A stretch of DNA of 52,547 nt from positions 1 through 52,547 of IMG/VR virus record IMGVR_UViG_3300021405_000017; one strand, written 5' to 3'. This document shows, one piece after another, positions 11,772 through 30,300 of this stretch. How positions within the stretch are numbered: the first letter of the stretch is position 1; each line of letters opens with the position of its first letter. The notes below the pieces were generated by a model, which was not told the DNA's origin, made no database searches, and saw only the letters and a program-made list of their open reading frames with translations. The DNA is from a virus (taxonomy: Duplodnaviria > Caudoviricetes). A program made the position numbers and the translations under genes.

Positions 11772-11974
11772 GTTTTCTAAACCGTTTTCTAAACCGCCCC
11801 GACGGTTTAAAATAAACCGCCCTAAGTTATTGAAAAGATTGGCTGGGGGACCTGGATTCGAACCAAGATTGACGGAGTCAGAGGCCGTTGTTCTTCCTTG
11901 ATTTTATTGGGAAAGGTTTTTTAAACCGCGATTTTTGGCCCTAAAGAGATCAATGGGTTGCGCTCGGTTTAGAA
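11772..11974. mobile_element. attP: core = 3' half of tRNA-Gln(CTG) (11840-11884, minus strand) with arm-type repeats
   Basis: Minus strand CTCTGAC-TCCGT-CAATCTTGGTTCGAATCCAGGTCCCCCAGCCA gives anticodon loop CTG, T-arm and CCA end. TAAACCG-containing repeats at 11772, 11784, 11803(rc), 11917 and 11965(rc); adjacent to the integrase. Confidence 0.9.
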
Positions 11975-13070
11975 TACGATTTTCGCCCGCCTCGTAGACT
12001 TCAAATTTAGCCATCGCTGCGCGCGCGACGCTCAGGTCAAGGTTCACATAACCAGCGAGCGAAGAGCGCTTTGTGCCGCTCTCCAAACCATGCCCGGTAA
12101 TGCTGGCGATCTCGATCGTGGTGCAGCCGGCGCGTCCCATGCGTGACGCGGCGGTCCCTCGTAGATCATGGAACGTGACGCCGCCTTTCCGGCTGCTTGG
12201 CACGCCCGCCTTGATACAGGTCTTACGCCACATGACCCGAAAGCCATCCGGCGTCCACGGCTCGCCGCTCTGGTTGACCAGCATGAGCTCATCTTTGCGG
12301 GGTGTCGCGTCGAGGATCGCCCTCAGCGGCGCCGCCACCGGGACGACGATATCGACGTCGGTCTTGCCTTGAGTCAGCGCGATCACGTCGCCGTCGTATG
12401 CGGTCCATGGCAGCCGGAGGAGATCGCCTTGTCGCTGCAAGGTCCAGAATGCGAGGGCCATCGCCAGCGACAATTCCGGCGAGGCGGCTGCCCTGAACGC
12501 CGCCATTTGGCCCTCGGTCCAGACCTTGTGTTTCCGACTCGTGCTGTAGAGTTTCTCGACGCCCGAGCGAGCGCAAGGATTGAACTCGATCTCGCCCCGC
12601 GTCGTCGCGAAATTCAAAACGATATTCAGGACGACCCAGGCATAGTCGGCCTGCCGGTCTGATTTCTTAGCGAGCTGATCGCGCCAGCGGAGGAAAATCC
12701 CTCGCGCCCGATTCTTGACCCCCAGGGCGATGATCGGCATCTGGCGATGTTCGGTGGGAACGGCGGCCAGGAGCTTGCGATAGTCGCGCTGTGTCCGCTC
12801 TTTCCGCTTCCGAAATTCGGGGCTGTCGAGATAAAGGTCAATCAGCCATTCGAGCGTCTTGCCGGCGGTCGCGCGCGGCTCGTTGGAGTTGGCGATCGGA
12901 CCCGCCGCCTTGATTGCCAGCGCCTCCGCCAGCGCGCGCCTGAACTCAGGCGAGCCTTCCGGCCCAGGTAGCTTCGGGCCGCCCTGCCACGCGTAGAGGT
13001 AGAGAACGGTCGTTCCATCGGCGAGTTTTTTGGGGACGCGGTGAATCCCCCCTTTACTTGGACGTCCCAT
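11904..13070 (-). CDS. int: Tyrosine recombinase (phage integrase)
   Basis: Catalytic R (LQRQGD), K (QGKT), HDLR, GH and Y (AGYV); next to attP. Confidence 0.95.
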   Translation of the reverse strand: MGRPSKGGIHRVPKKLADGTTVLYLYAWQGGPKLPGPEGSPEFRRALAEALAIKAAGPIANSNEPRATAGKTLEWLIDLYLDSPEFRKRKERTQRDYRKLLAAVPTEHRQMPIIALGVKNRARGIFLRWRDQLAKKSDRQADYAWVVLNIVLNFATTRGEIEFNPCARSGVEKLYSTSRKHKVWTEGQMAAFRAAASPELSLAMALAFWTLQRQGDLLRLPWTAYDGDVIALTQGKTDVDIVVPVAAPLRAILDATPRKDELMLVNQSGEPWTPDGFRVMWRKTCIKAGVPSSRKGGVTFHDLRGTAASRMGRAGCTTIEIASITGHGLESGTKRSSLAGYVNLDLSVARAAMAKFEVYEAGENRILNRAQPIDLFRAKNRGLKNLSQ

Positions 13071-13266: not shown

Positions 13267-13481
13267 CGTCGCTCGCCCTTCCCCGTCGCGGAATCGGCCC
13301 TTTCGCTTATGGCGGGAAGCCCCGCCGGGCGACGCGCCCCCGGGCGCGGTGTCTCACACTTCGCCCGAGCGGTCCGCGAAGACAAGAGGGCGCCGCGCAC
13401 AATTTGCGCTCCGTCCACGGGAATAGGCGCGGCCTGGTCCGATTCAATTCTCATCACCACGCCGCGCCTCCTTCCGTCTCA

Positions 13482-13977
13482 GCCGGCCCAGCCCCGCCTC
13501 GCCTTGCCAGATCAAGCCTAGTCACACCGCGCCTGGTCCAGCCTCGCCGGCCCCGCAAGCCGCGCCATGCCAGGCCACGCCTTGCCTCGCCAGGCCTCAC
13601 CATTCCGGCCGCGCCGAGCCCGGCCTTGCCTAGCCACGCCACGCCGCGCCAGACCCCGCCGCGCCGGCCTTGCCTTGCCTCGCCGGGCCTAGTCGCGCCC
13701 GGCCGCACCGAGCCTGGCCGAGCCCGGCCGTGCCGCGCCCCGCCGAGCCCTGCCTGCCTCGCCCCACCTCGCCAGGTCCAGCCTTGCCAGGCCTTGCCCC
13801 ACGCCGCACCTGCCTTGCCCTGCCTCGCCAAGTCGCGCCCGGCCTCGCCGGACCCAGCCCAGCCTGGCCACGCCTGCCTTGCCACGCCCAGCCTCACCGG
13901 GGCCGGCCGCGCCTTGTCTAGCCTAGCCATGCCTGGTCCGGCCGCGCCGTGCCGCGCCTGCCTTGCCTCGCCTCGTC
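13482..13977 (-). ncRNA. GGY-NN pentamer array 1 (about 7 putative guide units)
   Basis: Strict 5-nt periodicity (plus strand RCCNN, minus strand GGYNN) with 4-nt steps at 13482, 13546, 13604, 13663, 13752, 13808, 13872 and 13956. Intergenic, starting at the upstream gene's stop codon. RNA status inferred. Confidence 0.8.
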
Positions 13978-14280
13978 TCATACGGGCGAATCGAGCCGTT
14001 TGAACTCGCCTCGCCGTAGCTCGATGGCCGGGACACTCCGGATCTCGCTGCGCCGCGCCTTGATGACGAATTCGCGCCATTCTCGCCGCTGCTCCCGCTC
14101 TAAGCCGCGTACTAGGTCAGCCTGATATTTCTCCGACAACGCGCGCTTCACCCAAGCGTCGAACGGCAGCCGAGCCGCAGCTGCCGCCTCCTCGAACGCC
14201 TGCATGATCGGCGAGGCAAGGCGAATGTGGAGCGTCTTGCCGCCCACCTCGTCGTCATTGTCATTGATGGGTTCGTTCAT
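13978..14280 (-). CDS. Small hypothetical protein (possible RHH/HicB-like DNA-binding) between arrays 1 and 2
   Basis: AAGGAG RBS; TLHIRL...AAAAARLPFDAWVKRAL. Confidence 0.6.
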   Translation of the reverse strand: MNEPINDNDDEVGGKTLHIRLASPIMQAFEEAAAAARLPFDAWVKRALSEKYQADLVRGLEREQRREWREFVIKARRSEIRSVPAIELRRGEFKRLDSPV

Positions 14281-14301
14281 GACCCTCTCCTTTTCACTTT
14301 T

Positions 14302-15777
14302 GCCCGCCTTGCCTGCCTTGCCTTGCCGAGCCTTGTCGGACCCAGCCGGGACACGCCAAGCCTCGCCATGCAACGTCCCGCCGCGCCTGCCTTGCCATGT
14401 CGGGCCTAGCCGGGTCGGATCTTGCCGAACCCCGCCAAGCCTCGCCTCGCCCGGCCCGGTCAAGCCACGCCTGCCTTTGCCTTGCCATGCCTGGCCTTGC
14501 CCAGCCGCACCGTGCCGAACCCGGTCGGACCCGGCCAAGCCTGCCATGCCAGACCTCGCCTCGCCGCGCCTTGCCAAGCCTCGCCAAACCCGGCCATGTC
14601 GCATCCGGCCGCGCCTGCCTCGCCCCGCCTTGCCTCGCCGCGCCCTGCCCAGCCCGGCCAGGCCGAATCGTACCGGGTCTAGTCATGCCCCGCCGGCCTC
14701 GCCTTGCCCCGCCAGGCCCAGTCTCGGCTCGTCCTGCCTCGCCTAGTCCCGCCCAGTCGCGCCCGACCATGTCAGGCCGTGCCCGGTCCCGTCTTGCCGT
14801 GCCGCGCCTTGCCAGGCCTGCCTCGCCATGCCTCGCCAAGTCGCGCCTTGCCTCACCGCGTCTGGCCCGGCCTTGCCGCGCCAGGTCTCGCCGTGTCGCG
14901 CCTGCCTTGCCTTGCCTTGCCCGGCCCCGCCTCGCCGGGTCCCGCCATGCCTGCCTCGCCTCACCCCATCGTGCCGGGCCAAGGCGTGTCCCGACATGCC
15001 TCGGCATGCCAGGCCCGGCCCGGCCGGACCTCGCCTGCCTAGCCTCGCCCGGTCGCGCCGAGTCGAGCCTAGCCTCGCCGCGCCCCGCCGTACCGTGCCC
15101 GGCCGGGTCATGCCTGCCTCGCCCCGCCGCGCCAGCGCCATGCCAAGCCTTGCCGAGTCGCGCCTGGTCGTGCCTGGCCCGGCCAGGCCCAGCCTGGCCA
15201 TGCCTGCGTTGCCTTGCCTCATCAGGTCAGGCCATGCCTCGCCTCGCCCAGCCTCGCCTCGCCTCGCCTGTCTGGCCATGCTTCGCCTCGTCACATCATG
15301 CCGCGCCGGATCAAGCCTCGCCCGGTCCCGCCGTGCCGTGCCTGACCCCGCCTCATCAGGTCTGGCCATGCCTGCCTCGCCTCGCTGCGCCGGGGCTCGC
15401 CCGGCCAAGCCGGGTCGAGTCCCGCCTGGCCCCGCCTAGCCTGCCTTGCCGTGTCAGGCCTCGTCACGCCTCGCCGTGTCCGGCCCAGCCTAGTCTGGCC
15501 ATGCCTGCCGTGTCCGGCCCAAACCAAGCCTCGCCTTGCCGCGCCTTGCCTCGCCACGCCTGCCTTGCCCGGCCAGGCCAAGCCTTGTCACGTCGCACTG
15601 CATCCCGCCTCGCCTGCCTTGCCTGGCCTCGCCAGGTCTCGCCGCCCTTGTCCTGCCCAGCCTCGCCTGCCTTGTCAGGCCACGCCTAGCCGGACCGGGC
15701 CGGGCCTAGCCTTGCCTCGCCGCATCTGGCCCGGCTCTGTCATGCCAAGCCTGGCCTTGCCTGCCTTGCCGTGTCAG
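14302..15777 (-). ncRNA. GGY-NN pentamer array 2 (about 19 putative guide units)
   Basis: About 1.47 kb of pentamers. GGCAGGC-type junctions at 14311, 14385, 14469, 14539, 14613, 14692, 14816, 14900, 14949, 15033, 15112, 15202, 15266, 15370, 15439, 15503, 15558, 15612, 15665 and 15759. Confidence 0.8.
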
Positions 15778-16316
15778 GCGGCGGTTCGTGAGCCGCCGCC
15801 CTTGCCTTTGCCGCCTTTGCCGCCGCCGGCCTTGCCCGCACCTTTGCTCGCAGCCTTGGCGGCGCGGGCTCGTTCGGCGATGGTTTCGAGGTTGAGCAAC
15901 ATGGTGTCCAAGTCTGGACCGACGCCCAGGACGAGGGCGACCTTTCGCGCCCGCTCTATAGCGGCGGCGATGCGGTCAACCTCGTCCTCGAGGACTCGCA
16001 GCGCCCGCGCGCGCTGACCTTTGAACGAGGTCAATTCGCAAGAGGTCTGCGTTTTCGGCGCTCGATCGGGATCGACAATGTAGTAGGGCACTACGATGGT
16101 TTCGGTCTCCGTGATGACCTCAAACCGGACGTAACGGATCAGGGTGCGGGCCTGCTCGATCCAATGCTGTTGCGCCGCCTTTTTTACGTCCCATTCGAAG
16201 TCTTCATGGATTGGAGAGCCGGGAGGCCGAGCCGCTTCGACCACCTTCTCAGGCTCAAGACGCCCGCTGGAGTCTTCCAGCGAGCGAATAAAGGCGGCCT
16301 TGGCCGCCGACATCAT
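15774..16316 (-). CDS. Partner protein of the RAMP-like gene (function unknown)
   Basis: LEPEKVVEAARPPGSPIHEDFEWD..AAQQHWIEQARTLIR motif; ATGA-coupled to the RAMP-like gene; array 2 begins at its stop codon. Confidence 0.75.
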   Translation of the reverse strand: MMSAAKAAFIRSLEDSSGRLEPEKVVEAARPPGSPIHEDFEWDVKKAAQQHWIEQARTLIRYVRFEVITETETIVVPYYIVDPDRAPKTQTSCELTSFKGQRARALRVLEDEVDRIAAAIERARKVALVLGVGPDLDTMLLNLETIAERARAAKAASKGAGKAGGGKGGKGKGGGSRTAA

Positions 16317-17197
16317 TGCGACAGCCCCACCTCGTCGCCGCCGCCATTGCTCTTAGGCGGGCGCTTGCCGTTTGCGGCTTTCGGCGTCTTGCCCTTTGAC
16401 GCCTTGCCGCCCTCGCGCTGAGAGCTAGCCTCGCGCCGGATGATCTCGCTCTCGTACCACACCCACAATTCTTCGCTGTCGATATCGCTCGCCTCCGGGT
16501 TATCGTAGGCCGCCTGTTGCACCTTACGGCCGCCGTTCTTGACGATATCGAGCCAGCGCGGGTCACGCGCATCGACGACCTCCCAGCCGCCGTTGTTGAA
16601 GGTGCCCTTCTCTGTTCGCCCGTCGCCGATGCCGGTCACATCGCCGGCGTTCGACATCAAGTTGACGATCGCCCGCTCGGTCGTCAGCGTCTTGATGAAT
16701 TGGACGGTGAGTTTCACCGCCCATGTTTTGAACATCGCGCGGGTTCGAATGTCGGGCACGCGCTTCATGCCCTCAAGGCGGACCCAATCCATGTAGAGGT
16801 AGGGCTTGCCATAGACGTGGACCGTCTGGTCGACCACCTGCACCAGACAGCCGATCTCAGTCTTCGTTGCACCTGGCGTGCGGAGCGCCGCGGAACCGAG
16901 CGCCTTTTTGAAAGCGCCGGTAGGGAAGTGAAAAAGCGTAGGCGCGCTATCGTCGCGGCACCGATACATTGTGTCGCGGAATTCAGCGAGCGGGTCATGT
17001 TTCAAAATGACCTGCTTCTCGGCGTTGTTTTTAGCGCGCGACGGAAGCAACAGCTGCTGCTTCGCTTTCGCGCTCGGCCGATTCATCACCAGGGGCGCCG
17101 TGCCCAGAAGATGGAAGACAACGTAGCCTCGCTCGAAGCGCTTAAGCTCCGAGACCATCTCGGTGGTGTCGCGTGTTTTACTGGGTTTGGTAGCCAT
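16313..17197 (-). CDS. Stand-alone RAMP/Cas7(Csm3)-like RNA-binding protein (Vipr-like)
   Basis: N-terminal LLGTAPLVM (cf. RAMP TxSPLxIG), FHFPTGAFKKAL (cf. YIPGSSLKGAL) and C-terminal Gly-rich loop GIGDGRTEKGTFNNGGWEV. Flanked by pentamer arrays; AGGAGG RBS. Confidence 0.75.
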   Translation of the reverse strand: MATKPSKTRDTTEMVSELKRFERGYVVFHLLGTAPLVMNRPSAKAKQQLLLPSRAKNNAEKQVILKHDPLAEFRDTMYRCRDDSAPTLFHFPTGAFKKALGSAALRTPGATKTEIGCLVQVVDQTVHVYGKPYLYMDWVRLEGMKRVPDIRTRAMFKTWAVKLTVQFIKTLTTERAIVNLMSNAGDVTGIGDGRTEKGTFNNGGWEVVDARDPRWLDIVKNGGRKVQQAAYDNPEASDIDSEELWVWYESEIIRREASSQREGGKASKGKTPKAANGKRPPKSNGGGDEVGLSQ

Positions 17198-17252
17198 TCT
17201 CGTCTATGCTCCTCCTTTCGGAAAACGGCCTATCCGCTTTCCGTCGTCGCTT

Positions 17253-17279
17253 GGCCCGGGCGTCGTGAGCGCCCGGGCC
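17253..17279 (-). other. 10-bp perfect hairpin at the 3' end of array 3
   Basis: GGCCCGGGCG-7 nt-CGCCCGGGCC. Confidence 0.7.
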
Positions 17280-17299
17280 TTGCGTTTCGTTCGCGCTCA

Positions 17300-17939
17300 G
17301 CCTGCCGGCCGAGCCTTGCTTTGCCTCGCCATGCCGGGCCGTGCCACGCCGGGCCTGACCAGACCCAGCCCTGCCGAGCTGCGCCACGCCAAGTCGCGCC
17401 TGCCTCGCCCAGCCGGGCCGTGTCGGGCCTAGCCGCACCTCGCCCGGCCTCGCCAGGTCCGGCCGCGCCAAGCCTTGCCTGCGTCGCCGCGCCGTATCGC
17501 GCCGGACCGGGCCACGCCCCGCCAAGCCTCGGCCAGACAAGCCTCGCCAGGCCGCGCCTGCCTTGCCTCGCCATGCTGAGCCCAACCCCGCCAAGCCCCG
17601 CCGCGCCAGGTTCAGCCAGGTCCGGCCTCGCCTGCCTCGCCTTGCTCCGCCCCACCTCGCCGTGCCCCGTCACGCGTTGCCCGGTCGCGCCCAGCCGTGC
17701 CCCGTCTCGTCTAGCCATGCCTGCCTTGCCCCGCCGAGCCGGGTCTGGCCTTGCCCCGCCAAACCGCGCCACGCCAAGCCTGGCCTGACCCCGCCTGCGT
17801 CGCCTTGCCTCGCCTCGCCCGGCCAAGCCGCGCCCGGCCTCGCCATGTCGGGCTCAGCCCGGCCAGGCCTCGCCGGTCATGCCGCCCCTTATCGAGCCCA
17901 ACCCCGCCATGTCTGGCCAAACCGCGCCTGCCTTGCCTC
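17300..17939 (-). ncRNA. GGY-NN pentamer array 3 (about 8 putative guide units)
   Basis: Junctions at 17300, 17398, 17477, 17556, 17630, 17719, 17793, 17872 and 17926; spacings mostly 5n+4 (54-98 nt). Confidence 0.8.
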
Positions 17940-18966
17940 AAAGGAGGTTCTCCTCTGATTTGGCCGCAGAGGAGCGGCGAGGCGGTTCACCACCGTCCTC
18001 TGCGGCCGCATCCGGCGCGGGTGGTTGTGGCCCGGCGGGAGGGGGATTCTCCGCCGTTTGAGCCGCGCCGGAATCTAAGTTCGGGGATAGGTCAGTAGCG
18101 CCGGCTGCCCCGGCGAGCGCGTTCAGCTTCGAGGACAGGCCTTTCAGGGCAGGGCCTCGGTCGGCTTTCGGTTCTGGAAACAGCGTCTCGACTGTCGACT
18201 CGCCAGACTTGATCGCCTGCCGCATCGCGGTCAGCGTAATCAGATCGTCGAGGCCGACGTCCTCGATCCCCGGAACCTCAAGCGCGTTGAAGACGCGCTC
18301 GGGGGTAACGCCCCAGGCCGCGAAAGACCTGACCGCTACGTCCCGGCGCTCAGAGAGCGTCTTGACGTCGCCGGCGATCACCCGCTCGACCGACTGATAG
18401 GCTCGCCGCCAGATCGCCTTGGGCACGCCGCGCATGATCGCGTTGCGAAGCGCGATCGAACACGCGGCCTGGCCGGTCACCATGATTAAATCGTCGTCGT
18501 AAATCCGGCCATGCTTGTCGAAGATACGCCGGCGCACCCGTGACGTGGTGACGCGGCCCGTCTCCAAATCGTGGAAGACGCCCTCGGCCTCGACGAACTT
18601 TTCAATCCGATCGATGTGGATGACGCGGGAGGCGTCGCGGCAATTGCCCCATTGCGAGGCGACGATCTCGGCGAAACGTATGGACGGACCGCGAATCGCC
18701 TTTTTGCCGCGAGGCAGCGCATAGACGCATTCTTCCGCGGTCTCGTCGTCGAGCGTCGCCAGGCCCAGGATGTCGCTCATCACCTTCTTTTGCGATCGTG
18801 GATAGGCGTGCGCGGTATTGACCTGCTGATCGACCTCGGCGCGGCTGAGCGCGATCGCCAGGCTCATTTGGCTTTGCGCCGGACCGGCGTCGATCGTCGC
18901 CAGCGGGCCGAAGTCGTCCGTCTGTTCGAGATCCGTTTCGACGGGCTTAGCCATTGGCTTTTTCAT
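17938..18966 (-). CDS. Putative single-strand annealing/recombination protein
   Basis: DQQVNTAHAYPRS...YALPRG...GPSIRFAE..ASQWGN; adjacent to the YqaJ exonuclease. Function inferred from context. Confidence 0.6.
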   Translation of the reverse strand: MKKPMAKPVETDLEQTDDFGPLATIDAGPAQSQMSLAIALSRAEVDQQVNTAHAYPRSQKKVMSDILGLATLDDETAEECVYALPRGKKAIRGPSIRFAEIVASQWGNCRDASRVIHIDRIEKFVEAEGVFHDLETGRVTTSRVRRRIFDKHGRIYDDDLIMVTGQAACSIALRNAIMRGVPKAIWRRAYQSVERVIAGDVKTLSERRDVAVRSFAAWGVTPERVFNALEVPGIEDVGLDDLITLTAMRQAIKSGESTVETLFPEPKADRGPALKGLSSKLNALAGAAGATDLSPNLDSGAAQTAENPPPAGPQPPAPDAAAEDGGEPPRRSSAAKSEENLL

Positions 18967-23658: not shown

Positions 23659-24053
23659 GCTTTGATCTCCTCGAGGCGCTCACCGAACAGGCGGCCAAGC
23701 GCGAGGGCGTGCCGCGGGCCGAAGCCCGGCCGGCGGTCGAAGAGGCCGCGGAGGTTCTGGAATGGCGGATAGGCCGCGAGCCGCCGCGAGGCCGCGTGTT
23801 GCGATTGGCGGCGCTCCTGATCCATCCGCACGCGCGCCGCAAGTACCGCAACGTCCTGGTTGAGATCGACGAGATCGAGCTCGACGGCGATGACGGCGGC
23901 AAGATCCCGAGCATCGCCGTCACCTGCACCAAGTGCCGCGAAAGCGTCGAGATTTACGGCCGGCACGAGGCCTCGATCATCCGCGGCTGCGCCACTCTGG
24001 CCGACGACTGCGGCGAGTGGAATTTCTACGTCTACGACGAGGCGGTCGCGTGA
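23655..24053 (+). CDS. Hypothetical protein (Cys-containing)
   Basis: ATGA-coupled; CTKC...C...C. Confidence 0.55.
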   Translation: MSFDLLEALTEQAAKREGVPRAEARPAVEEAAEVLEWRIGREPPRGRVLRLAALLIHPHARRKYRNVLVEIDEIELDGDDGGKIPSIAVTCTKCRESVEIYGRHEASIIRGCATLADDCGEWNFYVYDEAVA

Positions 24054-25054
24054 CGGATGAACCCGAGTCCGACGACAAGCGCCAGAGAGGAAACGTCATG
24101 CCATTCGTCAGACCTAAGGAGGACGCGCGTTCATTCGAAACCACGCAGATGGAGACCAAGCTCTTAAGCCTTGGTGAAATGTACTCTTGGACCTTGCCGG
24201 CGTTTCAGCGCGATGAAGTGCAGACGAAAAAGGTCATTGAGTTTGCCGAGGAACTCAGAACCAACGGCGGCGTAGTGGCCGGCGTGATCCTGCTCGGGAT
24301 GCTGCGAGCGGCCGAGGAGTCTGTTGTTTATCTGGTTGACGGACAGCAGCGCCGCAATGCGTGTCAAATATCCGGTCTGTCCGAATTCATCGCTGACGTC
24401 TGCCTCAAACGCTACGACTCGATGGCGGACATGGCGGAAGATTTCAAGCGCGTGAACGCCCGGCTCGTTCCCTTCAAGCCGGACGATTTACTACGCGCCT
24501 GCGAGCTGTCGCATCAGTTTCTAAAGGAGTTGCGCGACCGTTGTCCCTTCATCGGATACGGCAACATTCGCCGATATGAGGATCGGTCGCCGACCTTGAG
24601 CGTCTCGATCGCGCTCAAATGCTGGTTCGGATCAGGCCAACCGACTCCAGGCGCGCAAGGTCAGGCCGTCGGGCTCCTCGATCAGCTCGACGACATTCAA
24701 TCCCAGAATCTGTCGGTCTTTCTGATCATGGCGCACAAAGCATGGGGAAGCGATCGGCAATACGGCCGCCTGTGGGCGAACCTCAATCTGACGATGTGCA
24801 TGTACTTGTATCGCAAGCTGGTGCTCGACCCGAGCAATCGGCGCGCGCCTTTGCCGAAGGAGATGTTCGGCAAAGCTCTCATGTCGGTTTCCGCCAACGG
24901 CCCTTATATCGACTGGCTGTCAGGCCGCAGCATTAGCGAGCGCGATCGTTCGCCCTGCTACAAGCGCTTGAAGAGCATCTTCGTTGAGCGGCTGACGCAG
25001 GAATACAACGGCAAGCTCTTTAAGCTGCCAAGTCCGGATTGGGCATCCAGTTGA
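24050..25054 (+). CDS. ParB-superfamily DGQQR/DUF262-like domain protein
   Basis: LPAFQR and YLVDGQQR motifs. Confidence 0.7.
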   Translation: MTDEPESDDKRQRGNVMPFVRPKEDARSFETTQMETKLLSLGEMYSWTLPAFQRDEVQTKKVIEFAEELRTNGGVVAGVILLGMLRAAEESVVYLVDGQQRRNACQISGLSEFIADVCLKRYDSMADMAEDFKRVNARLVPFKPDDLLRACELSHQFLKELRDRCPFIGYGNIRRYEDRSPTLSVSIALKCWFGSGQPTPGAQGQAVGLLDQLDDIQSQNLSVFLIMAHKAWGSDRQYGRLWANLNLTMCMYLYRKLVLDPSNRRAPLPKEMFGKALMSVSANGPYIDWLSGRSISERDRSPCYKRLKSIFVERLTQEYNGKLFKLPSPDWASS

Positions 25055-25800
25055 GCGCCGATCCCGCCCAGCCGCCGCGATCGCGAGGCGTTGGAAAAAC
25101 CGATCATTCGTGGATCAAGCACGGGATGGCCGCAAGCGCCGTCGGCGCTCAGGTCGCCGCATTCCGCCGGCTTTTTCCGGATGCGCGGATGGCGCTTATC
25201 GACGGCAACGCCGGCGACGGCGTCGGCGTCGAAACCGGGCAGGCCGATCTGTTCGACGGCGTGCGGCAGTCGCGGCCGACGCCGCGCTTACTGGCTGATC
25301 TGGCGAGAAAGCATAACGCGACGCTGTGTCTGTGCGAGTGCGATCGAGTCAAGCGGAAGATGCTGATCGAAGGATTTCCCGCCGCGACCGTCGTTTCGAG
25401 CCATCGCGAGGCGGCGGCTTTCGCCCTCAAGGGCTTCAATTATGCGCTGTGGCTCTCCGATCCGTGCGGTTATGCCGGGCATGGCGTCGAGCACATGCGC
25501 ACGGTCGCTGACATTTTTCACAGCGACTTCATCATCATTTTGAATGAGCTGGCTTTGGAGCGCGTTCGCGGCGCGAGGGGTTCGCCGCATTGGCTTCCGC
25601 ATCAGAAGTACACTCCGATGTTACAGCCTTCGTGGTGGCTGCAACAGCTCCCGAAGCGCTATCTCGCGCGCTCGCCGCTGATCAACCAATCTCCCGGATT
25701 TCACTTCCGATTGTTGGTCGCCAGCAACTTCCTGACCGATGGCGTCAAGCGGATGCGCAAGGTCGAAATCATCACGCGACAACAGGAGGGGCGAAGATAA
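25051..25800 (+). CDS. TcmP-like (three-Cys-motif partner) SAM-dependent methyltransferase-fold protein
   Basis: IDGNAGDG, LCECD, WLSDPCG; directly upstream of a DUF5131 gene. Confidence 0.6.
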   Translation: MSADPAQPPRSRGVGKTDHSWIKHGMAASAVGAQVAAFRRLFPDARMALIDGNAGDGVGVETGQADLFDGVRQSRPTPRLLADLARKHNATLCLCECDRVKRKMLIEGFPAATVVSSHREAAAFALKGFNYALWLSDPCGYAGHGVEHMRTVADIFHSDFIIILNELALERVRGARGSPHWLPHQKYTPMLQPSWWLQQLPKRYLARSPLINQSPGFHFRLLVASNFLTDGVKRMRKVEIITRQQEGRR

Positions 25801-27132
25801 ATGACCGAACTGACTCGCTACCAGGTTACCGAGCGCGCGCTGGCGTCCGCCAAGACGATCAATGAAGTGAGCGAAGTGTGCAGCTATTACGACGGCATCG
25901 CTAAAGCAGCGCGCGGCCTTGAAGACCGGGAGGCCGAGATCGAGGCGGCCGAGCTTTCCATCCGGGCAAAACGCAAGCTCGGTCAATTGATCATCGCCGC
26001 GGGCAAGGCGGGCGCGCTGGCGAAGGGAGGCGGCGATCAGCGGCCAAACCACCGGGTTAAAAATAACCCAGTGACGCCGACCCTTGCCAGCGCTCACGTC
26101 GACAAGAACCTCGCCAACAGCGCGCGTAAGCTCGGCAAGCTTGAGCCTGAGGAATTCGATCGCGGGTTTGAGGCATGGCGCAAATCGATCAACGGCGGCG
26201 GCGAGCGCATTTCAGCCAAGCTGCCAGAGGTTCCGCGGGAAGCGCGCGGACCATCTAAGCGACGCGCCGATAACATCTCGCTTAAGACCTGGGAGCAGAT
26301 GAGCGCGGAAGAGCGGCGCGAGTGCCTCGACCCGGCGAACTATCCCAGCGATGCTCCCATGAATAAGCAAGACGGCCCTGGCATCGAGTGGGCGCAGAAA
26401 AGCTGGAACCCGATTGTCGGCTGCAAGCATGACTGCCCCTATTGCTACGCGCGCGATATCGCGACCCGCTATCCCGACGCGTTCCCGCACGGCTTTGAGC
26501 CTGCGTTCCGCCCTTACATGCTCAACGCCCCGCGCAACACGCCGCTCCCGAAGGAAGCGATGTTCGACGCGCGGTTCAGCCATGTCTTCGCGGGGTCGAT
26601 GACGGATTGGTTTGGAAGGTGGGTGCCGCCCGAGTGGATCGAGGCGGTGCTCGCGACCATGCGCGACAATCAGATTTGGCAATTTCTATGCTTGACGAAA
26701 TTCCCGAAGCGCATGGCTGAATTTGATCTGCCGCCGAACATGTGGGCGGGCACCACGGTCGATCTCCAGGCGCGCGTCGCCAACGCAGAAGCGGCCTTTG
26801 CAAAGCTCGCGGCGAAAAACCCAACCGGCGTTCGCTGGCTTTCGATCGAGCCCCTACTCGAACCGCTCAAGTTCAAACAGCTTGATCTATTCAAGTGGGT
26901 GGTCATCGGCGGCGCTTCCAAATCCAGCAAGACGCCAGCGTTCCAGCCGCCGTTTCCGTGGATCATTGATATCTACGCCCAAGCCAAGGCTGCGGGCTGT
27001 CAAGTCTACATGAAGACGAATCTCCTCGGCAATCGGGTGCTCGAATTGCCCTTCGACGCGCCGATCAAGAAAGACCCGACAGAAGCGGAGAATGTCTTTC
27101 ATTATCTGGGGAGGGCCAAAGATGCCGAGTAG
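25801..27132 (+). CDS. DUF5131 (Gp37/Gp68) radical-SAM-like protein with N-terminal extension
   Basis: IEWAQKSWNPIVGCKHDCPYCYA, SMTDWF, LTKFP, LSIEPLL, WVVIGGAS. Confidence 0.85.
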   Translation: MTELTRYQVTERALASAKTINEVSEVCSYYDGIAKAARGLEDREAEIEAAELSIRAKRKLGQLIIAAGKAGALAKGGGDQRPNHRVKNNPVTPTLASAHVDKNLANSARKLGKLEPEEFDRGFEAWRKSINGGGERISAKLPEVPREARGPSKRRADNISLKTWEQMSAEERRECLDPANYPSDAPMNKQDGPGIEWAQKSWNPIVGCKHDCPYCYARDIATRYPDAFPHGFEPAFRPYMLNAPRNTPLPKEAMFDARFSHVFAGSMTDWFGRWVPPEWIEAVLATMRDNQIWQFLCLTKFPKRMAEFDLPPNMWAGTTVDLQARVANAEAAFAKLAAKNPTGVRWLSIEPLLEPLKFKQLDLFKWVVIGGASKSSKTPAFQPPFPWIIDIYAQAKAAGCQVYMKTNLLGNRVLELPFDAPIKKDPTEAENVFHYLGRAKDAE

Positions 27133-28421: not shown

Positions 28422-28658
28422 ATGGCGGACGGCCCTGTTGCACGTGAAACGACGCTCGCCGACGCGCTTGACGTCGTACGGCTGGACGAGCTCGCCCGCA
28501 CGGCGGAGCTGGCGGCGTCCTACTGGCACAGTGTCGCCCTGGCCGCCGATCGCGGCGACGTTCACACCCTCATCCTCCATTGTCACCAGCTCGCCCAGGT
28601 CACCCGCGAGGCCTTCGCCCTGGCGCGCGCGCTCGGCTCGTCGGAGGCCGAGCGATGA
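28422..28658 (+). CDS. Hypothetical protein
   Basis: Coupled to the next ORF. Confidence 0.5.
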   Translation: MADGPVARETTLADALDVVRLDELARTAELAASYWHSVALAADRGDVHTLILHCHQLAQVTREAFALARALGSSEAER

Positions 28659-28867
28659 CCGAGCCAGACCAGGAACGGCCGAGCGTGGCCGAGGAGCGCG
28701 AGCGACTCTTCCGCGCCTATCCGGAGGAGTACAACGACGGCGCCCGACGCGGCTATACCGGCAACAAGCGCTATCCGCGCGGCTTCCACGATTGGCCGCT
28801 CGAGCGACGGAACGCATGGTTCGCCGGCTGGAATGTCGGCTACTGCGACCGTATGGCGGGGCGCTGA
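28655..28867 (+). CDS. Hypothetical protein (RMF-like Y..G...GY...W..GW pattern)
   Basis: EYNDGARRGY...RNAWFAGWNVG. Confidence 0.5.
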   Translation: MTEPDQERPSVAEERERLFRAYPEEYNDGARRGYTGNKRYPRGFHDWPLERRNAWFAGWNVGYCDRMAGR

Positions 28868-30300
28868 TGCCAGAGCGACCGCCCTATTTCACCGAGGCTC
28901 AATGGCAGGAGCACCTCCGCCGGACAGGACAGGCGCCGGCCGGCGAGGAGCAGAAGCCGCCGCCGCCCGACAACGGCCAGCCTCCGGGCGGCTTCAATGA
29001 GAGGGTGGTCCAATTCGACCAGGCTCGAAAGCGCAAGCCCAAGCCGCCGCCGACGCCGCCGCCGGGCGGCTGGCCCGAATGGGTGGGACGTCTACGGCGC
29101 GACGATCGCGGCCGAGTCATCCCCGACCTCGCCAACGTCCTGATCGCCCTGCGCGGCGAGGACAAGCTCGCCGAGGCCTGCGGCTTCGACGAGATGCTAC
29201 AGCACTCGATGGTGTTGAAGGAATGGCCGCGCCTGCCCGACGCCAAGCCGATCAAGCCGCCGCCGCACGAGACCGATGATGATGACATTAGCCGGATCCA
29301 GGAGTGGTTGCAGCGCATGGGCCTGCCCCGGATCGGGCGCGAGATCGTCGGCCAGGCGGTCGAGGTCTTCGCCCGCGAGCGCAGCTTTCACCCGGTGCGC
29401 GATTGGCTCAACGGCCTCAGCTGGGACGGCGTACGCCGAATCGACCGCTGGCTGTTCGTCTATTTCGGCGCGGAAGCCGAGGATGATGACGCGATTGAAT
29501 ACGTCAGCGCGATCGGCAAGATGTTCCTCATCGCCATGGTGGCGCGGGTGTTTCGACCCGGCTGCCAAGCCGATTACATGCTCGTGCTCGAGGGCGACCA
29601 GGGCATCCTCAAATCAAGCGCCTGCCGCGCGCTCGCCGGCCAATGGTTCTCGGACAGCTTGCCGGATGACATTCAGGGCAAGGACGCCCGCCAGCACTTG
29701 CGCGGCAAATGGCTGATTGAAGTCTCCGAGCTTGCCGCCTTTTCCAAGGCCGAGACCGAGGCGCTGAAAGCCTTCATCACCCGGCGCGAGGAACGCTACC
29801 GTCCGCCCTTCGGCCGGCATGACGTGGTCGAAAAGCGGCAATGCCTGTTCATCGGCACCACCAACGAGGAGAGCTACATCAAGGACCAGACCGGCGGGCG
29901 CCGCTATTGGCCGGTCAAATGCCTGTCGATCGACGTCGAGGGCCTCGCCGGCGTCCGCGACCAGTTATTCGCCGAGGCCTTGATCCGGTTCCGCATGGGT
30001 GACCGCTGGTGGCCGACCGCCGCGGACGAGGCCAGGTTCTTCAAGCCGCAACAGGAGAGACGGGAGGAAGATGATCCGTGGGTTCCGCCCGTGGCGACCT
30101 GGCAGCAGGGCTTCCCATCGGACAAGGTGACGGTGTCGCAAGTTGCCCGCGAATGTTTGGGGTTTGACGGCAATTCCCGCATTGACCCGCGAGTACAGCA
30201 GCGGATCGCTAAGATACTCAAGAGGTTAGGTTGGGCGCAACTGCCGAGGACGATGCACGGCCGCTTTTACGCCCGGCCGCGAGGCGACGACGACGCATGA
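28867..30300 (+). CDS. VirE/VapE-family SF3 helicase (replication)
   Basis: FHPVRDWL, Walker A LEGDQGILKSS, Walker B LIEVSEL, FIGTTN, DQTGGRRYWPV. Confidence 0.9.
   Translation: MPERPPYFTEAQWQEHLRRTGQAPAGEEQKPPPPDNGQPPGGFNERVVQFDQARKRKPKPPPTPPPGGWPEWVGRLRRDDRGRVIPDLANVLIALRGEDKLAEACGFDEMLQHSMVLKEWPRLPDAKPIKPPPHETDDDDISRIQEWLQRMGLPRIGREIVGQAVEVFARERSFHPVRDWLNGLSWDGVRRIDRWLFVYFGAEAEDDDAIEYVSAIGKMFLIAMVARVFRPGCQADYMLVLEGDQGILKSSACRALAGQWFSDSLPDDIQGKDARQHLRGKWLIEVSELAAFSKAETEALKAFITRREERYRPPFGRHDVVEKRQCLFIGTTNEESYIKDQTGGRRYWPVKCLSIDVEGLAGVRDQLFAEALIRFRMGDRWWPTAADEARFFKPQQERREEDDPWVPPVATWQQGFPSDKVTVSQVARECLGFDGNSRIDPRVQQRIAKILKRLGWAQLPRTMHGRFYARPRGDDDA

What the first reader, a model, noticed from the sequence alone, without database searches (positions are those of the whole stretch)
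13550..15758. Three independent guide units decode to VirE helicase motifs
Unit 13550-13603 reads DL(D/E)NVLIAL vs resident DLANVLIALR (29125-29154, 17/20). Unit 13812-13871 reads QWWPDRAFE vs RWWPTAADE (30001-30030, 12/20). Unit 15669-15758 reads KQFISRQAEKYxPPY vs KAFITRREERYRPPF (29767-29814, 22/32). Three in-frame hits to one replication gene family are unlikely by chance and point to competitor replication as a preferred target.
Basis: partly seen in the sequence, partly recalled or inferred. Interest (0 to 1): 0.85.

Follow-up and report, generated by a model that had tools for sequence, protein, structure and literature searches.

The report
VIPR guide RNAs aimed at VapE helicases
A soil phage carries a recently described CRISPR-like silencing system (VIPR), and at least two of its roughly 31 gapped guide RNAs spell conserved motifs of the VapE replication helicase of rival phages; this is a new example of a known kind.

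Summary
The counts are right: 17/20, 12/20 and 22/32. The "decoding" is the published 1-nt-skip rule of VIPR systems (bioRxiv 10.64898/2026.04.26.720920).

The locus is a VIPR system:
- a RAMP-fold Vipr gene at 16313-17197 (Foldseek hits to Csm3/Cas7; its family profile finds the phage SUSP1 vipr gene, E=3.9e-9);
- an adjacent accessory gene at 15774-16316;
- three staggered GGY-NN arrays holding about 31 guides.

Against the resident VapE gene alone the evidence is mixed. Unit 3 and unit 1 beat permutations (0 and 4 of 2000). Unit 2 does not. Window-wide nothing survives correction.

Against 160 VapE genes from other phages and alphaproteobacterial genomes:
- Unit 2 reaches 21/24, and at least 20/24 in 8 loci. 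All hits are in frame at the WWPD.AFE motif. Two of 4000 shuffles do as well.
- Unit 3 reaches 27/36. One of 3000 shuffles does as well.
- Unit 1 is not significant.

The resident allele is unusually poor at the unit 2 site (13/24; 126 of 138 homologues score higher). No perfect target was found, and "preferred target" is not shown. The scan has met VIPR loci before on other DNA (23 notes).

The parts
13480..13980 (-). vrRNA array A: about 100 pentamers reading G-R-Y-N-N on the minus strand, with 7 parsed guides.
   Evidence: Lag-5 identity is 0.585 against 0.271 in a control stretch. The parse gives 92 five-mers, 8 four-mers and 1 six-mer. Layout.
13978..14280 (-). 100-aa ORF between arrays A and B, of unknown function.
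   Evidence: ORF. No Pfam or PHROG family. It is listed because it lies inside the locus; membership is not shown.
14300..15780 (-). vrRNA array B: about 300 pentamers with 16 parsed guides.
   Evidence: Lag-5 identity 0.576. The parse gives 277 five-mers, 21 four-mers and 2 six-mers. Layout.
15774..16316 (-). vap-like accessory gene (180 aa, phrog_15946). Its start overlaps the stop of vipr.
   Evidence: phrog_15946, E=5.4e-12. 48% identity over 50 aa to Saal gp52. Its profile is found on the vipr strand in 77 of 80 related loci, and in 73 of those it starts -10 to +685 nt after the Vipr match. The fold search was inconclusive.
16313..17197 (-). vipr: a 294-aa RAMP-fold (Cas7-like) protein.
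   Evidence: AF2 model with pLDDT 81.9. The listed top Foldseek PDB hits are chains of CRISPR type III (Csm/Cmr), III-D/III-E and type VII effector complexes, best E=7e-5, 33 hits at E<=0.001. The family profile hits the 201-aa gene between the GGY arrays of phage SUSP1, E=3.9e-9. phrog_4652.
17311..17940 (-). vrRNA array C, upstream of vipr, with 8 parsed guides.
   Evidence: Lag-5 excess over 17201-17801. Sequence. Parse.
13562..13606 (-).
   Evidence: 15/18 against resident VapE at 29122-29147, and against L002. 8 of 9 residues fit PDLDNVLIA alleles. Not significant at DNA level. 18/18 in Hcp genes.
13815..13874 (-).
   Evidence: 21/24 in L241, and 20/24 or better in 8 of 160 VapE loci, all in frame. 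Two of 4000 shuffles reach 21. The resident site scores only 13/24.
15672..15761 (-).
   Evidence: 24/36 against the resident, reached by 0 of 2000 shuffles. 27/36 in L235, L132 and L122. 24/36 or better in 57 of 160 loci. One of 3000 shuffles reaches 27.
17726..17795 (-). Guide C17795: 14 pentamers, a possible fourth guide against the same gene family.
   Evidence: 22/28 at GQQFVGFGIHPETK in the N-terminal part of a 731-aa ORF that carries the VapE domain (L198). 15 of 3000 shuffles reach it.
28867..30300 (+). Resident VapE/VirE-type helicase gene (477-aa form). Sites homologous to the guides: 29122-29148 (PDLANVLIA), 29767-29820 (KAFITRREERYRPPFGRH) and 30001-30036 (DRWWPTAADEAR).
   Evidence: PF05272, E=1.7e-73. 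PHROG DNA helicase/primase families. The cluster representative is 477 aa, starting MPERPP. Site coordinates.

Best explanation
The stretch 13480-17940 (minus strand) is a VIPR system of a temperate soil phage. It comprises a Vipr protein (a minimal Cas7-like RAMP), an accessory Vap-like protein, and three 'staggered' arrays that encode about 31 vrRNAs.

Mechanism, taken from the published work on phage SUSP1 and inferred here. One Vipr protomer binds each GGY-NN pentamer and hides the GGY. The NN pairs are presented to double-stranded DNA and pair with two bases out of every three. The skipped base usually falls on the codon wobble position. Binding silences transcription.

Shown here by sequence statistics. 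They do so in frame and in coding sense.

Inferred. These guides let the phage, probably as a prophage expressing its integrase-proximal operon, silence the replication helicase of rival phages or prophages of Alphaproteobacteria. Its own allele has drifted away at the unit 2 site and so is spared. Unit 1 (13562-13606) may belong to the same set, but it is too short to call.
For: System identity:
- 5-nt periodicity in three arrays.
- RAMP fold of the 294-aa protein.
- Profile homology to the SUSP1 vipr gene, which sits between GGY arrays as the paper describes.
- A vap-like gene next to vipr in 77 of 80 related IMG/VR loci.
- 56 of 80 loci had a stretch of 200 bp or more with 5-nt periodicity (my count from the table). 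54 have both an array with at least 20 GGY triplets on the gene's strand and a vap hit.
- The same array plus two-gene module occurs in Mycobacterium phage Saal.
- 25 of 40 phase steps are GGCA, usually after GGCAA or GGCGA. This fits the 1-nt-overlapping 'staggered arrays' of the paper's fig. S18 legend.

Targeting:
They are reached by 0, 0 and 1 of 300 shuffles; every other guide has p>0.13.
- At DNA level, against 160 VapE loci (651 kb, all frames, both strands), A13874 scores 21/24 (2 of 4000 shuffles), B15761 27/36 (1 of 3000) and C17795 22/28 (15 of 3000).
- Every top hit of units 2 and 3 lies at the homologous site, in frame, with the skipped base at the wobble position.
- By my arithmetic, the z-scores are 5.9, 5.9 and 4.1. 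Among 170 foreign guides used as decoys, one reaches 7.9 and the next best is 3.4.
- The resident allele at the unit 2 site scores 13/24, and 126 of 138 homologues score higher.
- The targeted columns are near-invariant in the family: W 0.87, W 0.99, P 1.0, E 0.98; K 1.0, F 0.97, R 0.97, E 0.99.
Against: - No perfect or near-perfect target was found anywhere. The best matches are 87.5% (unit 2), 75% (unit 3) and 83% (unit 1). The VIPR paper reports that most top matches were perfect and uses a cut-off of 80%.
- Unit 3 disagrees with near-invariant residues: guide CC where the family has Arg, GT where it has Gly, and CT where it has Arg. No known allele can match it well.
- Exact-pattern scans found no VapE hit in IMG/VR. 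Only 1 of 19 hits in JGI metagenomes was in a VapE gene, at 19/24.
- In 401 alphaproteobacterial genomes, a search allowing 3 or fewer mismatches to unit 2 gave 1 non-VapE hit, and the backwards control also gave 1.
- The gene family was chosen after looking at the data. For unit 3, the family test is not independent of its resemblance to the resident gene.
- The resident allele is not diverged at the unit 3 site (24/36; 87 of 140 loci score lower), nor at the unit 1 site (15/18, the top value). The self-sparing argument therefore holds for unit 2 only.
- Unit 1 matches its own contig at 83%, whereas the paper saw no self-target at 80% or more.
- Transcription and processing of the arrays were not observed.
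Confidence: 0.75

Rival explanations
1. The locus is a VIPR system, but the resemblance of these three units to VapE motifs is chance. It was picked out of 31 guides times about 70 genes by a reader looking for familiar motifs. The real targets are elsewhere and unknown.
For: Window-wide tests are null. The 12/20 and 17/20 matches to the resident gene are ordinary. 80% on a 9-pentamer guide is expected by chance: 910 of 2000 shuffles reach 15/18 against the VapE set. No target above 87.5% was found. Unit 1 matches Hcp genes perfectly, which shows how easily short guides find motifs.
Against: After correction for 31 guides, by my arithmetic, units 2 and 3 stay near p=0.02 each, and together they are far less likely. 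Hits are in frame at near-invariant codons. Foreign guides used as decoys do not behave this way.
Confidence: 0.13
2. The guides act on the phage's own VapE gene. They would hold its replication module down during lysogeny, rather than acting on competitors.
For: Unit 1 matches the resident-type allele best: 15/18, with no homologue higher among 64 sites. Unit 3 matches the resident better than 87 of 140 homologues. The arrays sit in the integrase-proximal operon of a temperate phage.
Against: Unit 2, the best-supported guide, matches the resident allele worse than 126 of 138 homologues. Unit 3 reaches only 67% on the resident. The published systems showed no self-targets at 80% or more. The mismatch tolerance of this Vipr is unknown.
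Confidence: 0.07
3. The VapE-like units are decayed relics. They once matched a VapE allele, but have drifted, or their target has died out, and they no longer silence anything.
For: Unit 3 mismatches invariant Arg and Gly codons. Unit 1 lies in a degenerate part of array A, without the usual GGCGA-GGCAA-GGCA end. No target at 90% or better was found in any collection searched.
Against: The GGY scaffold of units 2 and 3 is intact. Unit 2 passes the published 80% cut-off on 8 natural loci. The collections searched hold few phages of this host range: only 3 of the 160 loci exceed 65% VapE identity.
Confidence: 0.15

Closest known systems
VIPR systems with staggered vrRNA arrays (bioRxiv 10.64898/2026.04.26.720920; main text, methods and figure legends read, figures and supplements not seen)
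   Same: A lone RAMP protein plus an adjacent accessory gene. GGY-NN pentamer arrays sit on the same strand on both sides. Guides are 9-18 pentamers long and are separated by a 4-nt step, which fits the '1 nt overlapping' units of the fig. S18 legend. The NN read by the 1-nt-skip rule falls on codon positions 1-2. The system is phage-borne and the inferred targets are other phages.
   Different: The arrays are very large, about 550 pentamers and at least 31 guides in 2.7 kb, against 4 vrRNAs in SUSP1. No conserved 3' tail or pseudoknot was seen. The inferred target is a VapE-type replication helicase, which the main texts I read do not name as a target. I could not assign the VIPR type (I-VII) because the type tables are in supplements that were closed.
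Type II VIPR of Escherichia phage SUSP1 (experimentally characterised; also 10.64898/2026.04.26.720927 and 10.64898/2026.10.15.759431, of which I read the abstracts, outlines and some sections)
   Same: The Vipr family profile of this window finds the SUSP1 gene (E=3.9e-9). That gene is flanked by GGY arrays on its own strand. Both aim at near-invariant codon positions of an essential gene of a rival element.
   Different: SUSP1 Vipr has a 201-aa frame, against 294 aa here. The match covers only profile positions 151-199. SUSP1 is a virulent coliphage whose guides hit a satellite's excision recombinase. This is a temperate phage, apparently of Alphaproteobacteria.
Class 1 CRISPR-Cas backbone subunits (Csm3/Cmr4/Cas7)
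   Same: RAMP fold (Foldseek probability 1.0, target-normalised TM up to 0.54). A periodic grip on a guide RNA.
   Different: There is no CRISPR repeat-spacer array: only 5-nt-based periods were found. No other cas genes lie among the neighbours. The period is 5 nt with a gapped code, rather than 6 nt with contiguous spacers.
Mycobacterium phage Saal gp51/gp52 locus (Cheoctovirus; annotated as hypothetical proteins)
   Same: A roughly 240-bp GGY-NN array with a similar junction motif, followed by phrog_4652 and phrog_15946 genes. It lies next to the immunity/excision region of a temperate phage.
   Different: One short array. 30% protein identity. Actinobacterial host.

Membership tests
VIPR system | A Vipr protein with the RAMP (RRM core, thumb, glycine-rich loop) fold | tested here: met
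   AF2 model with pLDDT 81.9 and pTM 0.75. The listed Foldseek PDB top hits are chains of CRISPR type III and type VII effector complexes (Csm3/Cas7-like), with 33 hits at E<=0.001. A glycine-rich block is invariant in 38 homologues: G185, G191, D192, R194, G198, G203. Calling this block the G-loop is my inference.
VIPR system | Sequence relationship to an experimentally characterised Vipr | tested here: met
   The profile of alignment A1 gives a single hit in the phage SUSP1 record, E=3.9e-9, in a 201-aa frame. That frame lies between same-strand GGY arrays: 26 pattern matches against 0.01 expected. This is the published layout of one vrRNA upstream and three downstream. The accession of the SUSP1 record was recalled by me and confirmed by the record's own title.
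VIPR system | vrRNA genes made of tandem GGY/NN pentamers, conserved GGY and hypervariable NN, beside vipr on its strand | tested here: met
   Of 503 five-mers, the core is GGC in 354, GAC in 66, GGT in 32 and GAT in 13. All 16 NN dinucleotides occur. The A at core position 2 (79 units) departs from strict GGY; the paper allows 'a related consensus'.
VIPR system | An adjacent vap accessory gene | tested here: met
   The 180-aa gene overlaps the vipr stop. A homologue lies on the vipr strand in 77 of 80 related loci. Which of vap1-6 it is could not be tested, because the supplements were closed. The fold search was inconclusive.
VIPR system | Guides of about 9-16 repeats with defined ends | tested here: inconclusive
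   The parse gives 31 runs of 9-30 pentamers between phase steps. The ends are inferred from sequence only. Three runs (20, 24 and 30 pentamers) probably hold two guides each.
VIPR system | vrRNAs are expressed and bound by Vipr | not testable with these tools
   Needs small-RNA sequencing or a pull-down.
VIPR system | Natural targets under the 1-nt-skip rule at 80% NN identity or more, with the skip at the wobble position | tested here: met
   Unit 2 (A13874) scores 20-21 of 24 in 8 of 160 VapE loci, all in frame, and 2 of 4000 shuffles do as well. Unit 3 reaches only 75%.
Class 1 CRISPR-Cas | A repeat-spacer array (repeats of about 23-47 bp) and further cas genes | tested here: not met
   Tandem Repeats Finder reports only periods built on the 5-nt unit. 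Pfam and PHROGs on the neighbouring ORFs show integrase, YqaJ exonuclease and an HTH repressor, and no cas family.

The most novel reading that the evidence does not exclude
This temperate alphaproteobacterial phage uses several guides of one VIPR array to silence the conserved motifs of the VapE-type helicase of rival prophages. Its own VapE allele has been driven away from the family consensus at the best-targeted motif (WWPD.AFE has become WWPTAADE). That would be a linked 'weapon plus resistant allele' pair: the first natural case of VIPR aimed at a replication gene, and of a self-sparing allele.
Probability: 0.4. Interest if true: 0.6.

Novelty: new member of a known kind. Interest (0 to 1): 0.5.

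Why it matters
VIPR was described only in 2026. Its natural targets are known for coliphage SUSP1 (a satellite's recombinase) and a Pseudomonas prophage clade (lysis-lysogeny regulators).

This locus adds three things:
- A very large staggered array in a soil phage of Alphaproteobacteria.
- A statistically supported target class that the main texts do not mention: conserved motifs of a VapE-type replication helicase.
- A hint that the carrier's own allele has diverged at one target site.

If that hint holds, guide sets could be read as a record of which rival genes a phage fights. Weapon-linked resistant alleles could then be looked for in other VIPR phages.

There is also a methodological point. 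A permutation test against the resident gene alone would have wrongly dismissed the best guide. Guides must be tested against the gene family.

Tried and rejected
Early ideas. Before the literature search I considered a protein-binding (centromere-like) array, G-quadruplex or R-loop DNA, and a TRAP-like RNA-binding array. I dropped them once the array was found linked to a RAMP gene across phyla and the VIPR papers were found.

Other searches:
- Rfam: nothing but a sub-threshold isrL match, E=0.2.
- RNA evidence: no RNA holder listed.
- The 'genome' held for the window is the window itself. No other prophages of the same host could be scanned.

Scans for targets that led nowhere:
- Own guides against the own contig and L002 at 78% or more: only A13606 on VapE.
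- 171 guides of related loci against the window: 8 hits at 80% or more, against 1-7 in 20 shuffles.
- All guides against 1.4 Mb of fetched loci at 85% or more: 39 hits, of which 29 are the circular A13606 pattern loci. The other 10 fall in the null range of 7-16.
- Exact gapped patterns in IMG/VR. Unit 1 core: 30 loci, none VapE by tblastn, 9 of them in one Hcp-like family. Unit 3 halves: 6 and 0 loci, none VapE, and none extend beyond 22/36. Unit 2: 3 loci, out of frame. Unit 2 core without the first pentamer: 0 loci.
- The same unit 2 core in JGI metagenomes: 19 loci, 1 in a VapE gene at 19/24.
- 401 alphaproteobacterial genomes, 3 or fewer mismatches to the full unit 2 pattern: 1 hit, not VapE; the backwards control also gave 1. 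The same search in 5 genomes gave 0 hits.

Other dead ends:
- Vap fold: best Foldseek E=0.29, to forkhead/winged-helix domains. This is too weak to use.
- VapE as a single protein found nothing in genome contigs, and only one relative in IMG/VR. Alignment A2 was needed.
- Supplements of the three preprints were closed. Their type tables and target lists may already cover this clade or VapE targets.
- Not used: the search of protein representatives, the protein-atlas search, complex prediction, read laying.
Full report
What is there. The finding lies inside three stretches with a strict 5-nt period: 13480-13980, 14300-15780 and 17200-17940. Identity at lag 5 is 0.585 and 0.576, against 0.271 in a control stretch. 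Read on the minus strand, the unit is G-R-Y-N-N. Of 503 five-mers the core is GGC in 354, GAC in 66, GGT in 32 and GAT in 13, and all 16 NN dinucleotides occur. About 40 four-nucleotide steps break the phase. Twenty-five of them are GGCA, usually after GGCAA or GGCGA. Cutting at the steps gives 31 runs of 9-30 pentamers.

The arrays lie in a minus-strand operon next to an integrase gene (11904-13070). They share it with a YqaJ-type exonuclease and a cI-like repressor further up. Between the arrays lie a 294-aa gene (16313-17197), a 180-aa gene overlapping its stop (15774-16316), and a 100-aa ORF (13978-14280).

What it is. A low-stringency blastn of the arrays hit 240-bp arrays of the same kind in Mycobacterium and Gordonia phages. 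In phage Saal the array is followed by homologues of both window genes: phrog_4652 (30% identity, E=5e-16) and phrog_15946. A literature search then found three 2026 preprints on VIPR systems. For 10.64898/2026.04.26.720920 I read the results, discussion, methods and figure legends. For 10.64898/2026.04.26.720927 I read the abstract and one results section. For 10.64898/2026.10.15.759431 I read the abstract, one methods section and some passages.

According to these papers, VIPR consists of a Vipr protein (a minimal RAMP), an accessory vap gene, and vrRNAs of 9-16 GGY/NN repeats. The NN pairs read double-stranded DNA while skipping every third base, usually the codon wobble base. Natural targets were called at 80% NN identity or more, and 'staggered' arrays with 1-nt overlapping units are described.

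Membership was tested in four ways:
- The 294-aa protein folds with confidence (pLDDT 81.9). Its listed Foldseek PDB top hits are chains of CRISPR type III and type VII effector complexes (Csm3/Cas7-like).
- Its family profile finds exactly one place in the SUSP1 genome: a 201-aa frame, E=3.9e-9, flanked by same-strand GGY arrays.
- In 80 IMG/VR loci with a homologue, kept from at least 502 confirmed, 77 also have the vap-like gene on the same strand.
- Fifty-six of those 80 loci show a stretch of 200 bp or more with 5-nt periodicity (my count).

The scan has met VIPR loci before on other DNA (23 notes).

The observation. The three counts are correct.

Whether they exceed chance depends on the test. 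Against the resident gene, scanning all phases, shuffled arrays do as well: 17/20 in 93 of 200 shuffles, and 22/32 or better in 182 of 200. In the NN phase only, 17/20 is reached in 8 and 4 of 300 shuffles, and 22/32 in 15 and 20 of 300. With whole guides read in frame, unit 3 (24/36) is reached by 0 of 2000 shuffles and unit 1 (15/18) by 4 of 2000. Unit 2 is at chance.

The gene was chosen after the fact, however. Over six frames of the whole window, real and shuffled arrays give the same tail. Over 72 called genes, the per-guide p-values are 0.007 and 0.05, and only 1 of 31 guides falls below 0.05. One point remains: the two best guides both have their window-wide best hit in VapE, which makes up 4.4% of the codons. 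At this stage I held the finding to be probably chance.

The turn. The hypothesis is that the guides aim at other phages' alleles, so the family is the proper target set.
- Unit 2 fits 10 of 12 residues (EQWWPDRAFEQK in P0172). The family consensus is ERWWPDAAFERE, and the resident DRWWPTAADEAR fits 5 of 12.
- Unit 3 fits 11 of 18 residues; the resident fits 8.
- Unit 1 fits 8 of 9 residues (PDLDNVLIA); the resident fits 7.

These scores are reached by 0, 0 and 1 of 300 shuffles. All 28 other guides have p>0.13.

I then fetched 160 VapE loci as DNA. Eighty came from GTDB genomes, all Alphaproteobacteria by their titles where named (Acetobacteraceae, Methylobacterium, Bradyrhizobium, Methylocella, Ancylobacter and others). 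Eighty came from IMG/VR. All 31 guides were scanned over both strands and all frames.
- Unit 2 reaches 21/24 (L241). It scores 20/24 or better in 8 loci and 19/24 or better in 21 loci. Two of 4000 shuffles reach 21.
- Unit 3 reaches 27/36 (L235, L132, L122) and 24/36 or better in 57 loci. One of 3000 shuffles reaches 27.
- A fourth guide, C17795, reaches 22/28 in the N-terminal part of a 731-aa ORF that carries the VapE domain. Fifteen of 3000 shuffles reach it.
- Unit 1 (15/18) is reached by 910 of 2000 shuffles.

All top hits of units 2 and 3 are at the homologous motif, in frame, with the skipped base at the wobble position. As decoys I used 170 guides from 43 related VIPR loci. Two beat all 80 shuffles, where 2.1 are expected. 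One of them looks real (26/30, z=7.9, upstream of the VapE match in L122), and the next best has z=3.4. The window's guides have z=5.9, 5.9 and 4.1, by my arithmetic.

Limits.
- No perfect target was found. Exact-pattern scans of IMG/VR and JGI metagenomes, and a search of 401 alphaproteobacterial genomes allowing 3 or fewer mismatches, gave nothing better.
- Unit 3 stays below the published 80% line and disagrees with near-invariant Arg and Gly codons.
- Unit 1 is too short to assign. Its nine pentamers match 18/18 in five loci that the 16-base pattern scan itself had fetched. Two of these (L006, L029) belong to a recurrent Hcp-like family. L006 was confirmed as PF05638; the rest I judged by peptide similarity.
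- The self-sparing argument holds for unit 2 only. There the resident scores 13/24, and 126 of 138 homologues score higher. At the unit 3 and unit 1 sites the resident is average or top.
- 'Preferred target' is not established. Three or four of 31 guides point to this family, and related VIPR loci show no such aim.
- Expression was not observed.

Verdict. The thing itself is a new member of a known, very recent kind (VIPR). Two points go beyond the main texts I read, which name no helicase, primase or VapE gene as a target; paper 1 does not use the word replication at all, and paper 3 uses it only in other contexts. The first is a replication-helicase family as a natural target. The second is a resident allele that is diverged at the best-targeted site. 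The supplements, which I could not see, may bear on both.

Noticed in passing
window 17726-17795 (minus strand): Guide C17795 decodes to G-Q-Q-F-V-A-F-G-x-x-P-S-G-x. It matches 22/28 at GQQFVGFGIHPETK in the N-terminal part of a 731-aa ORF whose C-terminal part is the VapE domain (L198 487-2682). Fifteen of 3000 shuffles do as well. The window itself has no evident counterpart of that N-terminal part.
   Followed up: partly
L001 3001-3236 (Mycobacterium phage Saal) and 31 further phage records: Cultured Mycobacterium (27 records) and Gordonia (5 records) phages carry homologues of the Vipr-like gene. Saal has a 240-bp GGY-NN array followed by phrog_4652 and phrog_15946 genes, all annotated as hypothetical proteins. 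These are tractable hosts for testing this VIPR clade.
   Followed up: partly
L037 about 11327 versus L034/L035 10256-10290 and L064 6328-6362: A 12-pentamer guide of one IMG/VR VIPR locus matches 21/24 inside the vipr genes of three other loci. The preprint reports vrRNAs that target other VIPR systems, and this fits. No shuffle test was run for this guide.
   Followed up: no
L083 about 4346 versus L122 about 134: A 15-pentamer guide of another VIPR phage matches 26/30 (z=7.9, reached by 0 of 80 shuffles), in frame, in a gene just upstream of the VapE gene of an alphaproteobacterial MAG. This is a likely natural target, and it works as a positive control for the scoring method.
   Followed up: no
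L006 6621-6646, L029 3832-3857 and 7 further IMG/VR loci: The nine pentamers of unit 1 match 17-18 of 18 at the ELENVLIA motif of a 163-aa protein in high-GC contigs. L006 was confirmed as T6SS Hcp (PF05638, E=3e-39); the others I judged by peptide similarity. This may be a chance effect of an abundant conserved family, or an alternative target.
   Followed up: partly
window 13978-14280 (minus strand): A 100-aa ORF with a good ribosome-binding site sits between arrays A and B. It has no Pfam or PHROG family. I did not check whether it belongs to the VIPR locus.
   Followed up: no
window 28438-30300: The 620-aa ORF from the TTG start is over-extended. The database form of the VapE protein is 477 aa, starting MPERPP at about 28867.
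   Followed up: partly
window 23933-27132: Upstream of the VapE gene lie ORFs with a weak GmrSD_N match (E=2.4e-6, below the Pfam cut-off) and a DUF5131 match (E=4.9e-35). I did not pursue them.
   Followed up: no
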